Assembly: GCA_032718475.1 (NCBI GenBank)
Contig: JAUCBJ010001919.1
Location: 62,001 to 126,000 of the forward strand
DNA: 64,000 nucleotides
Source: Nemertoderma westbladi
Lineage: Eukaryota; Animalia; Xenacoelomorpha
Direction: 5' to 3'
The position numbers were made by a program, and so were the translations under genes. Below, one piece after another: positions 40,578 through 43,483 of the stretch. Position 1 is the first letter of the stretch. Every line of letters begins with the position of its first letter. The notes beneath the pieces were generated by a model. It was not told the origin of the DNA and searched no databases. It saw only the letters and a program-made list of their open reading frames with translations.

Positions 40578-40744
40578 ACTCGGTATATCGTTGTTACCCT
40601 TTAACCCTCGTGTTCTCAACGCATCTAACCCTAACCTAACCATTGAACTCTACGGTCCATTAATGTTGTCATTTACATTAATTGCAATCCTCCTTTATAC
40701 AATGAAGTCTGGCGGTCACACAGTGCAAGAGGGAACCCTAATCG
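40578..40744 (+). CDS. YIPF3: YIPF3 coding exon 3
   Basis: Acceptor TTTCTTGCAG; reads [34 protein letters not shown], matching YIPF3 [18 protein letters not shown]; phase-1 donor G|GTAAGT. Confidence 0.93.
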
Positions 40745-41473
40745 GTAAGTGAGACACACAGTGCAGGAGGGAACCCTAGTCGGTAAGTGAGACACACAGT
40801 GCAGGAGGGAACCCTAATCGGTAAGTGAGACACACAGTGCAGGAGGGAACCCTAATCGGTAAGTGAGACACACAGTGCAGGAGGGAACCCTAATCGGTAA
40901 GTGAGACACACAGTGCAGGAGGGAACCCTAATCGGTAAGTGAGACACACAGTGCAGGAGGGAACCCTAATCGGTAAGTGAGACACACAGTGCAGGAGGGA
41001 ACCCTAATCGGTAAGTGAGACACACAGTGCAGGAGGGAACCCTAATCGGTAAGTGAGACACACAGTGCAGGAGGGAACCCTAATCGGTAAGTGAGACACA
41101 CAGTGCAGGAGGGAACCCTAATCGGTAAGTGAGACACACAGTGCAGGAGGGAACCCTAATTGGTAAGTGAGACACAGTGCAGGAGGGAACCCTAATCGGT
41201 AAGTGAGACACACAGTGCAGGAGGGAACCCTAATCGGTAAGTGAGACACACAGTGCAGGAGGGAACCCTAATCGGTAAGTGAGACACACAGTGCAGGAGG
41301 GAACCCTAATCGGTAAGTGAGACACACAGTGCAGGAGGGAACCCTAATCGGTAAGTGAGACACACAGTGCAGTAGGGAACCCTAATCGGTAAGTGAGACA
41401 CACAGTGCAGGAGGGAACCCTAATCGGTAAGTGAGACACACAGTGCAGGAGGGAACCCTAATTGGTAAGTGAG
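40717..41473 (+). repeat. 38-bp tandem array (20 copies) of the exon-3 end plus splice donor
   Basis: Unit CACACAGTGCAGGAGGGAACCCTAATCG|GTAAGTGAGA. First donor after 40744, last after 41464 (18x38 plus one 36-bp unit = 720 bp). Confidence 0.97.
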
Positions 41474-41486
41474 CTCTCTAAATTTA

Positions 41487-43483
41487 TTCACCGTTTTTGG
41501 TTCTGCCTTTTGCTTTCTACAGTATTTTTCACCGTTTTATGTTCTGCCTTTTGCTTTCTACAGTATTTTTAGCGTTTTAGGTTCTGCCTTTTGCTTTCTA
41601 CAGCATTTTTCACCGTTTTGGTTTCTGCCTTTTGCTTTCTACAGCATTTTTCACCGTTTTTGGTTCTGCCTTTTGCTTTCTACAGCATTTTTCACCGTTT
41701 TTGGTTCTGCCTTTTGCTTTCTACAGCATTTTTCACCGTTTTAGGTTCTGCCTTTTGCTTTCTACAGCATTTTTCACCGTTTTTGGTTCTGCCTTTTGCG
41801 TTCTACAGTATTTATCACCGTTTTAGGTTCTGCCTTTTGCTTTCTACAACATTTTTCACCGTTTTTGGTTCTGCCTTTTGCGTTCTACAGTATTTTTCAC
41901 CGTTTTAGGTTCTGCTTTTTGCTTTCTACAGCATTTTTCACCGTTTTAGGTTCTGTCTTTTGCTTTCTAAAGCATTTTTCACCGTTTTTGGTTCTGCCTT
42001 TTGCTTTCTACAGCACTTTTCACCGTTTTTGGTTCTGCCTTTTGCTTTCTACAGCATTTTTCGCCGGTTTTGGTTCTGCCTTATGCGTTCTACAGTATTT
42101 TTCACCGTTTTAGGTTCTGCCTTTTGCTTTCTACAGCATTTTTCACCGTTTTTGGTTCTGCCTTTTGCGTTCTACAGTATTTTTCACCGTTTTAGGTTCT
42201 GCCTTTTGCTTTCTACAGCATTTTTCACCGTTTTAGGTTCTGCCTTTTACTTTCTACAGTATTTTTCACCGTTTTAGGTTCTGTCTTTTGCTTTCTACAG
42301 CATTTTTCACCGTTTTTGGTTCTGCCTTTTGTTTTCTACAGTATTTTTCACCATTTTTGGTTTTGCCTTTCGCTTTCTACAGTATTTTTCACCGTTTTAG
42401 GTTCTGCCTTTTGCTTTCTACTGCACTTTTCACCGTTTTTGGTTCTGTCTTTTGCTTTCTACCGTATTTTTCACCGTTTTAGGTTCTGACTTTAGCTTTC
42501 TACAGCATTTTTCACCGTTTTAGGTTCTGCCTTTTGCTTTCTACAGCACTTTTCACCGTTTTTGGTTCTGCCTTTTGCTTTCTACAGTATTTTTCACCGT
42601 TTTTGGTTCTGCCTTTTTCTTTCTACTGTATTTTTCACCGTTTTTGGTTCTACCTGTTGCTTTCTACAGTATTTTTCACCGTTTTTGGTTCTGCCTTTTG
42701 CTTTCTACATCATTTTTCACCGTTTTTGGTTCTGCCTTTTGCTTTCTACAGCATTTTCCACAGTTTTTGGTTCTGCCTTTTGCATTCTACAGCATTTTTC
42801 ACCGTTTTGGGTTCTGCCTTTTGCTTTCTACAGCATTTTTCACCGTTTTTGGTTCTGCCTTTTGCTTTCTACTGTATTTTTCACCGTTTTAGGTTCTGCC
42901 TTTTGCTTTCTACAGTATTTTTCACCGTTTTTGGTTCTGCCTTTTTCTTTCTACTGTATTTTTTCACCGTTTTTGGTTCTACCTGTTGCTTTCTACAGTA
43001 TTTTTCACCGTTTTTGGTTCTGCCTTTTGCTTTCTACAGTATTTTTCACCGTTTTTGGTTCTACCTGTTGCTTTCTACAGTATTTTTCACCGTTTTTGGT
43101 TCTGCCTTTTGCTTTCTACAGCATTTTTCACCGTTTTAGGTTCTGACTTTAGCGTTATGCAGTATTTTTCACCGTTTTTGGTTCTACCTGTTGCTTTCTA
43201 CAGTATTTTTCACCGTTTTTGGTTCTGCCTTTTGCTTTCTACAGTATTTTTCACCGTTTTTGGTTCTACCTGTTGCTTTCTACAGTATTTTTCACCGTTT
43301 TTGGTTCTGCCTTTTGCTTTCTACAGCATTTTTCACCGTTTTAGGTTCTGACTTTAGCGTTATGCAGTATTTTTCACCGTTTTTGGTTCTGCCTTTTGCT
43401 TTCTACAGTATTTTTCACTGTTTTAGGTTCTGCCTTTTGCTTTATACACTATATTTTTCACCTTTTTACTTTTAGGTTCAGCT
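41487..43483 (+). repeat. 41-bp pyrimidine-rich tandem array (~48 copies) resembling the intron-3/exon-4 acceptor
   Basis: Unit TTTTTCACCGTTTT(A/T)GGTTCTGCCTTTTGCTTTCTACAG(T/C)A, merging into the true acceptor TTTTTCACCTTTTTACTTTTAG|GTTCAGCTTT. Confidence 0.95.

What the first reader, a model, noticed from the sequence alone, without database searches (positions are those of the whole stretch)
40717..43483. A YIPF3 intron made almost entirely of tandem splice donors followed by tandem acceptor-like units
Seen: the 2,731-bp intron 3 of an otherwise intact YIPF3 consists of 20 copies of the exon-3/GTAAGT junction, about 14 bp of unique sequence (CTCTCTAAATTTAT), then ~48 copies of a unit rich in polypyrimidine-AG sites. 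Simply extending exon 3 to a later donor hits GGT AAG TGA, an in-frame stop at 40750-40752. The nearest TAG|GTTC decoy acceptor is 49 nt upstream of the true one and out of frame. Inference: the spliceosome must choose the outermost pair from hundreds of combinations, against proximity. That implies strict exon definition, stepwise splicing, or a copy-number-dependent loss of transcripts to NMD that could tune expression. Both ends of one intron were amplified separately.
Basis: partly seen in the sequence, partly recalled or inferred. Interest (0 to 1): 0.88.

Follow-up and report, generated by a model that had tools for sequence, protein, structure and literature searches.

The report
Double splice-site "mirage" in YIPF3 intron
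In an invertebrate animal's YIPF3 gene, both ends of one intron have been copied head-to-tail (20 and about 48 times), yet assembled RNA joins only the two outermost, true splice sites, so this is likely a harmless double case of a repeat type already known from lancelet and human genes.

Summary
The structure is real. Intron 3 (40745-43475, 2,731 bp) holds 20 copies of the exon-3/donor junction, then about 48 copies of a 41-bp unit. That unit is itself a decayed copy of the intron-end/exon-4 junction. Only 1 of 1,240 donor-acceptor pairs gives intact protein.

DNA runs from two studies hold both arrays. Spliced contigs from two studies join donor 1 to the last acceptor, with read-through under 1%. 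One of these shares its sample with an array-bearing DNA run.

This is a 'mirage' minisatellite (amphioxus; human F7 VNTR). The outermost pair is what cross-exon proximity predicts, so the choice is not 'against proximity'. NMD tuning is unsupported: this is the last intron, so decoy acceptors leave no downstream junction.

Two points are unusual. Both ends of one intron are amplified, which nests a 58-nt pseudo-intron. The intron also sits 19 nt from the conserved YIPF3 intron site. This scan has noted one-sided mirages in many other genomes. Stepwise inner splicing remains untested.

The parts
39223..39490 (+). YIPF3 coding exon 1 (ATG at 39223)
   Evidence: RNA joint skipping 244 nt, GT..AG, in X4 and X5
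39735..39906 (+). YIPF3 exon 2; ends at the conserved R|L intron site (P0007 residue 113)
   Evidence: RNA joint skipping 671 nt, GT..AG
40578..40744 (+). YIPF3 exon 3; its last 28 nt are the first unit of the donor array
40717..41473 (+). Donor mirage: 20 x 38 bp (28 nt exon end + 10 nt intron start); true donor at 40745, 19 decoy donors at 40783-41465
   Evidence: present in DNA runs X1 and X3
41474..41499 (+).
41465..41522 (+). Innermost decoy pair: last donor to first CAG, a 58-nt GT..AG pseudo-intron; use not tested
41482..43467 (+). Acceptor mirage: about 48 x 41 bp (about 28 nt intron end + about 13 nt decayed exon-4 head); 61 decoy AGs
   Evidence: present in DNA runs X1 and X3
43427..43475 (+). 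Last, 49-nt unit ending in the true acceptor (AG at 43474-43475); AG-free for 49 nt; 18 of 22 pyrimidines
   Evidence: RNA loose ends
43476..43870 (+). YIPF3 exon 4, last coding exon, to TAA; RNA contigs continue to 43920 (X5) and past 43960 (X4)

Best explanation
This YIPF3 intron carries two tandem arrays, one copied from each of its own splice junctions, and the assembled RNA joins the first donor to the last acceptor, likely because each true site is chosen with its full-length exon (exon definition) while the decoys are removed as neutral intron filler. Shown: the anatomy, that the arrays derive from the junctions, that independent DNA holds them, and the dominant splice. Inferred: (a) a short intron (about 35-45 nt if each array is collapsed to one unit) sat in a genome that seeds minisatellites often, so a 40-nt duplication there almost had to span a splice site; (b) the acceptor array arose first and the donor array later; (c) such arrays survive because copies spread inwards and leave the outer sites attached to intact exons; (d) donor 1 wins as the first donor after exon 3's acceptor, and the last acceptor wins as the only one followed by real exon sequence and closest to the transcript's 3' end.
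For: - One X5 contig (768 nt, depth 328) runs exon 2 - exon 3 - exon 4 (its pieces dovetail). Its letters before the acceptor are unique exon-3 letters, not repeat letters.
- X4, from another study, leaves exon 3 at 40746 into exon-4 letters.
- Read-through: 0 in X5, 0.07-0.76% in X4. The one array contig listed for X4 has depth 33 against 6,012.
- X3 is DNA of the same sample as X5 and holds both arrays. Its true acceptor has two changes that cut the pyrimidine count from 18 to 16 of 22, the commonest decoy value (33 of 61), yet X5 still uses it. This favours position over tract strength.
- Donors all lie upstream of acceptors, so no strong pseudo-exon forms.
- Large arrays cover 75% of the window, and 45% outside the first satellite.
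- Precedents: F7 IVS7 uses only the most upstream donor (PMC1557585); lancelet mirages leave splicing normal (PMC3087553, PMC3902484); cross-exon proximity (PMC9225289).
Against: - Contigs drop rare variants and show only steady-state RNA, so degraded or transient products are invisible. 39 loose ends and 299 pieces were not shown, and 25 pieces.
- The array status of the X4 individual is unknown.
- X3's arrays look shorter (about 4 donor and 14-18 acceptor units), so the paired DNA/RNA proof may not cover the 20/48 allele.
- The exon-definition data are from mammals. This animal's other two introns are short (244 and 671 nt), where intron definition might be expected.
- In PMC9225289 exon definition only reduces the upstream 3' site preference.
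- Human CBS and 6-16 do use their second or third donor copies.
- One X3 change also improves a branch-site-like word (consensus recalled).
Confidence: 0.75

Rival explanations
1. Nested, inside-out splicing: inner decoy pairs, starting with the 58-nt donor-20/first-CAG pseudo-intron, are spliced first by intron definition and shorten the intron; the outer pair finishes the job, giving the same mRNA.
For: The innermost pair is a well-formed short GT..AG intron. Decoy CAGs have 15-17 of 22 pyrimidines (58 of 61 decoys). The end product would look identical. Intrasplicing and nested splicing are described (search listing only).
Against: 19 decoy donors cannot consume 61 decoy AGs, so the final choice still needs another rule. 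No partly spliced array contig appears among the rows shown. TAG|GTTCTG would regenerate only a poor donor, so classic recursive splicing is unlikely (sequence; consensus recalled).
Confidence: 0.12
2. Array length tunes YIPF3 output: longer alleles send more transcripts to decoy sites and decay.
For: Only 1 of 1,240 pairs is productive. Depth ratios hint at length variation: donor array about 4 units in X3 and 11-16 in X1; acceptor array 14-18 and 27-32. CBS uses extra donor copies, and a cited title links its VNTR to enzyme activity (passage and reference title only).
Against: No decoy junction among the rows shown; read-through under 1%. Last intron, so junction-dependent NMD cannot act on decoy-acceptor products (plus established knowledge). 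Depth is a poor copy measure, and both arrays being lower in X3 could be library bias. No sign of selection on the arrays.
Confidence: 0.07
3. The G-rich donor array and U/C-rich acceptor array fold back on each other, hiding the decoys and bringing the outer sites together.
For: Predicted duplex of about -21 kcal/mol per unit pair. The 2.9-kb minimum-energy fold nests the arrays and pairs donor 1 at 43483, beside the true acceptor.
Against: No better than dinucleotide-shuffled units (z -0.5 to -0.75; 61-71 of 300 shuffles as stable). Donor 1 is paired too, and the true acceptor is not the most open AG. Global folds of this length are unreliable, and donors are transcribed well before their partners.
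Confidence: 0.05
4. The arrays are an assembly artefact, or this locus is silent while a clean paralog is expressed.
For: No raw long read spanning the intron was seen; the exact copy numbers rest on the window alone. X1 may be the window's own source.
Against: DNA runs of two studies hold both units at many times single-copy depth, and single-copy contigs run from the unique flanks into the arrays. RNA variants in exon 4 match the DNA variants of the same sample. Units carry ordered, higher-order variants.
Confidence: 0.01

Closest known systems
Amphioxus 'mirage' minisatellites (Adh3, globins BflGb6/BflGb9, troponin C, PGBD5); PMC3087553 and PMC3902484, passages read; the original Adh3 paper was not held
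   Same: Tandem copies spanning an exon-intron boundary, at 5' or 3' boundaries; cryptic GT/AG in many units; edge units diverge from the array interior; normal splicing; unit length within the 10-72 bp Adh3 range.
   Different: Here both boundaries of one intron are amplified and the two arrays abut, leaving no unique intron sequence. The passages read describe 5' and 3' cases in different genes. Copy numbers (20 and 48) exceed those in the globins (3-6).
Human F7 IVS7 37-bp VNTR, and the 6-16, CBS, lamin B2 and PDGFA donor minisatellites; PMC1557585 (abstract, Discussion, two passages)
   Same: First unit spans the exon end and donor; near-identical pseudo-donors follow; the most upstream donor is used; almost the same unit length (37 vs 38 bp).
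   Different: F7 has 5-9 sites competing for a single acceptor; here 20 donors face 62 AGs. CBS and 6-16 leak to the next copies; no leak is seen here above about 1%.
Intron gain from mirage or tandem duplication (Rogers model; Fig. 7 model of PMC3087553, passage read)
   Same: The intron is at a position not seen in other YIPF3 loci and consists wholly of repeats, as that model predicts for new introns.
   Different: The intron part of the unit matches the intron end, not exon sequence, so the arrays copy a pre-existing intron's edges rather than creating it.

Membership tests
Mirage / splice-junction minisatellite | Tandem head-to-tail array whose unit spans an exon-intron boundary of the host gene | tested here: met
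   Donor unit is 28 nt exon + 10 nt intron with 0-3 differences. Acceptor unit aligns to the true intron end plus exon-4 head.
Mirage / splice-junction minisatellite | Copies retain cryptic GT or AG signals | tested here: met
   19 decoy GTAAGT and 61 decoy AG
Mirage / splice-junction minisatellite | Normal splicing at the authentic sites | tested here: met
   X4 and X5 contigs; dominant form only
Mirage / splice-junction minisatellite | Length instability between alleles (VNTR behaviour) | tested here: inconclusive
   Depth ratios differ about 2-4 fold between X1 and X3, but contig depth is not a copy number
Mirage / splice-junction minisatellite | Somatic instability (reported for Adh3) | not testable with these tools
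   Needs single-molecule typing
YIPF3 (Yip1 domain family) | Homology and conserved motifs across exons 2-4 | tested here: met
   Named top hits are YIPF3; three exons align in order to P0007 at 48-60%. Pfam Yip1 is only weak on exon 4 alone (E 0.099, below cut-off).
Recursive (ratchet-point) splicing | Acceptor AG directly followed by a strong regenerated donor | tested here: not met
   Decoy contexts are mainly CAG|TAT, CAG|CAT and TAG|GTTCTG; none is followed by GT(A/G)AG
Nested / intrasplicing | Lariats or intermediates from internal donor-acceptor pairs | not testable with these tools
   Only contigs were available
Intron born by exon duplication (Rogers / mirage gain model) | Intron interior derived from flanking exon sequence | tested here: not met
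   Unit's intron part vs exon 4 (nt 14-70): 1,466 of 3,000 shuffles as good; vs exon 3 end: 488 of 3,000. An old, erased origin cannot be excluded.
Intron born by exon duplication (Rogers / mirage gain model) | Intron position absent from orthologs | tested here: met
   43 of 43 well-aligned loci are continuous across this site; 22 of them have an acceptor AG 19 nt upstream instead

The most novel reading that the evidence does not exclude
The two arrays act as one nested unit: decoy donors pair with decoy acceptors from the inside out, helped by fold-back of the arrays, so this lineage-specific intron, now made only of copies of its own ends, is removed like a set of Russian dolls, and the second array was tolerated or favoured because it absorbs the first one's decoys.
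Probability: 0.1. Interest if true: 0.7.

Novelty: new variant of a known kind. Interest (0 to 1): 0.3.

Why it matters
One-sided mirages are known and look harmless. A two-sided one is a clean natural test of how an invertebrate picks splice sites: intron definition predicts the innermost 58-nt pair and a dead gene, while exon definition predicts the outermost pair, which is what the RNA shows. A single lariat experiment would tell one-step from nested removal. It also shows how a tiny intron can grow about 60-fold from its own ends. No regulatory role is shown.

Tried and rejected
- No whole genome is held, so enrichment of arrays at splice junctions could not be tested genome-wide. Of the four other large arrays in the window, three carry no GT(A/G)AG word and none carries a pyrimidine-tract AG in the stretch sampled.
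- The run search listed no holder on record as RNA. X4 and X5 were treated as RNA only because they skip introns 1 and 2 at GT..AG. 4 of 8 listed runs were laid; X2, X6, X7 and X8 were not.
- Fold-back as a selected feature: rejected against shuffles.
- Exon origin of the intron interior: rejected.
- Recursive splicing: rejected on sequence.
- A de Bruijn comparison of window arrays with X1 contig lengths was not informative.
- The Adh3 mirage paper was not held by DOI or PMC id, so whether Adh3 has a two-sided case is unknown to me.
- A five-term search for two-sided cases gave 0 papers. The three-term mirage search gave 2 papers. These are narrow searches of an open-access library only.
- PMC10078293 (passages) and PMC8724738 (passages) added nothing specific.
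- No supplements were read; those of PMC3087553 (mirage alignments) may bear on the comparison.
- Three rows (L022, L023, L035) were misaligned across an intron and were dropped from the 46 before the count of 43. My note said 20 rows with AG; the correct count is 22.

Full report
Observation. The gene has four coding exons, 39223-39490, 39735-39906, 40578-40744 and 43476-43870, giving 333 aa. Exon 4 finds 12 homologs among 1,211 candidates; the named ones are all YIPF3, the best from sea cucumbers and a hemichordate at 46-49%, too distant to name the animal. Intron 3 is 2,731 bp. It holds 20.0 copies of a 38-bp unit (98% matches) and 48.4 copies of a 41-bp unit (91%), with 20 GTAAGT donors and 62 AGs. 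The stop at 40750-40752 and the decoy 49 nt upstream are as described. Of 1,240 donor-acceptor pairs, 1 gives the intact protein.

Anatomy. The donor unit is the last 28 nt of exon 3 plus the first 10 nt of the intron, with 0-3 differences per copy. The acceptor unit is about 28 nt of intron end plus about 13 nt that resemble the head of exon 4. The intron part matches the last 36 nt of this intron (0 of 3,000 shuffles reach the score) but not exon 4 nt 14-70 (1,466 of 3,000), the exon 3 end (488) or the ends of introns 1 and 2 (205 and 667). The exon-like part is equalled by 16 of 15,466 non-array 13-mers. The intron therefore contains nothing but copies of its own two ends. Collapsed, it would be 9 nt plus 26-36 nt; that the ancestral intron was this short is inference, since interior sequence could have been lost. 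The greater divergence of the acceptor array suggests it is older (inference).

Is it real and is it spliced? No genome is held. The run search listed 8 runs, 5 holding the stretch, from 3 studies, none on record as RNA. I laid 4 of them on the two flanks. X1 and X3 cover introns and behave as DNA. X4 and X5 skip introns 1 and 2 at GT..AG and behave as RNA. Both leave exon 3 at 40746 into exon-4 letters, and both enter exon 4 at 43475 from exon-3 letters; the shared GT or G explains the offsets. X5's 30 shown letters include the unique exon sequence upstream of the repeat, which identifies donor 1, and a single 768-nt contig of depth 328 dovetails across both calls. X4's 12 letters alone would not distinguish donors, but no X4 contig fitted two places. 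Residual depth past donor 1 is 0 in X5 and 0.07-0.76% in X4; the one array contig listed for X4 has 0.55% of the mRNA depth, likely summed over many copies. Limits: contigs drop rare forms, 39 loose ends were not shown, and degraded RNA is invisible.

DNA evidence. X1 and X3 (two studies; X1 may be the window's source) hold both units far above single-copy depth. Rough ratios give about 4 donor and 14-18 acceptor units in X3, and 11-16 and 27-32 in X1, against 20 and 48 in the window. This hints at length variation but could be library bias. X3 and X5 are one sample and share exon-4 variants. X3's true acceptor has two changes that lower its pyrimidine count from 18 to 16 of 22; 33 of 61 decoys have 16 and 19 have 17. 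X5 still uses that site, which favours position over tract strength.

Mechanism. Under exon definition the splice sites closest across the exon are favoured, and under intron definition those closest across the intron (PMC9225289, abstract and section 9; for 3' sites the effect is a reduced upstream preference, not a reversal). Donor 1 is the first donor after exon 3's acceptor, and the last AG is the only acceptor followed by real exon sequence. All decoy donors precede all decoy acceptors, so no strong pseudo-exon is framed. In human F7 only the most upstream of 5-9 identical donors is used, by position (PMC1557585, abstract and Discussion). The acceptor array is rich in UUCU (47 per kb against 5 in exon 4), a PTB-type word from recall, which may help silence it (untested). 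NMD tuning is weak: no junction is seen after intron 3 up to 43960, and all 61 decoy-acceptor products of donor 1 stop after the last junction. Only donors 3-20 would put the stop more than 50 nt before a junction (rule recalled). The arrays are predicted to fold back on each other, but no more than shuffled units (61-71 of 300 as stable). Nested splicing from the 58-nt innermost pair cannot be excluded, but 19 donors cannot consume 61 AGs.

Intron position. Among 78 metagenome loci, 46 gave an alignment over this site and 3 were dropped as misaligned. All 43 remaining are continuous across the Gly codon that the window's intron splits. 22 of them (10 distinct peptides) have an acceptor AG just before residue 160 of P0007, 19 nt upstream; the other 21 run through without an intron there and are likely transcripts or intron-poor genes. 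The window gene keeps the break at residue 113 and lacks those near 77, 128, 159, 203 and 246 seen in other loci. Intron 3 is thus at a lineage-specific site in a gene with much intron turnover. This meets one prediction of the mirage intron-gain model (PMC3087553, passage), but the test for exon origin of the interior failed, so the arrays most likely postdate the intron.

Comparison. Tandem repeats spanning 5' or 3' exon-intron boundaries are called mirages in amphioxus and do not disturb splicing (PMC3087553 and PMC3902484, passages). Human donor-side cases include F7, 6-16, CBS, lamin B2 and PDGFA, two of which leak to the next copies. I reached the F7 precedent by search; the term 'mirage' came from earlier notes of this scan, and I checked it in the papers. 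The scan has many one-sided cases in other genomes and no notes on this genome. I found no two-sided case, but these searches are narrow and the Adh3 paper was not held. With large arrays covering 45% of the window outside the first satellite, two adjacent seeds somewhere in the genome are not surprising.

Verdict. Real, expressed and correctly spliced; a two-sided variant of a known repeat class; most likely neutral. Interest 0.3.

Noticed in passing
window 40745 vs loci L014-L072: Intron 3 lies 19 nt downstream of the conserved YIPF3 intron site, and this gene lacks about five intron positions seen in other loci, which points to heavy intron turnover in this lineage.
   Followed up: yes
window 44306-50730: The 6-kb array of 62/42-bp units just after YIPF3 is flanked by 29-bp inverted repeats (27 of 29 matching), like a foldback or MITE-type element with internal tandem repeats.
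   Followed up: partly
window 1-34932: At least 1,673 copies of a 20-bp satellite; further arrays at 50989-53366 (44 bp x 54) and 54490-56243 (40 bp x 44).
   Followed up: no
window 37937-38435: Perfect 213-bp inverted repeat with a 73-nt spacer.
   Followed up: no
window 35118-37488: 282-bp inverted repeats, 98% complementary, 1.8 kb apart, possibly a non-autonomous element or two inverted copies of one repeat.
   Followed up: no
window 39960-40470: A high-copy dispersed repeat fills most of intron 2 (depth in the thousands in DNA runs); without it the intron would be about 160 nt.
   Followed up: no
window 60119-62323 and 62209-63510: Two long overlapping stop-free frames (735 and 434 aa) with no Pfam hit; possibly a retroelement gag-like region, which is a guess.
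   Followed up: partly
window 40726-40734: The exon-3 end differs synonymously between the window (CAA GAG), the repeat units (CAG GAG) and X5 (CAG GAA), so the exon and its copies evolve separately.
   Followed up: partly
window 39175 and 39758: Loose ends in X4 (before 39175) and X5 (before 39758) may mark an upstream untranslated exon, an allele or a chimeric contig.
   Followed up: no
window 43870-44350: No AATAAA or ATTAAA after the stop; the X5 contig ends at 43920 and X4 depth falls about eight-fold near 43740.
   Followed up: no
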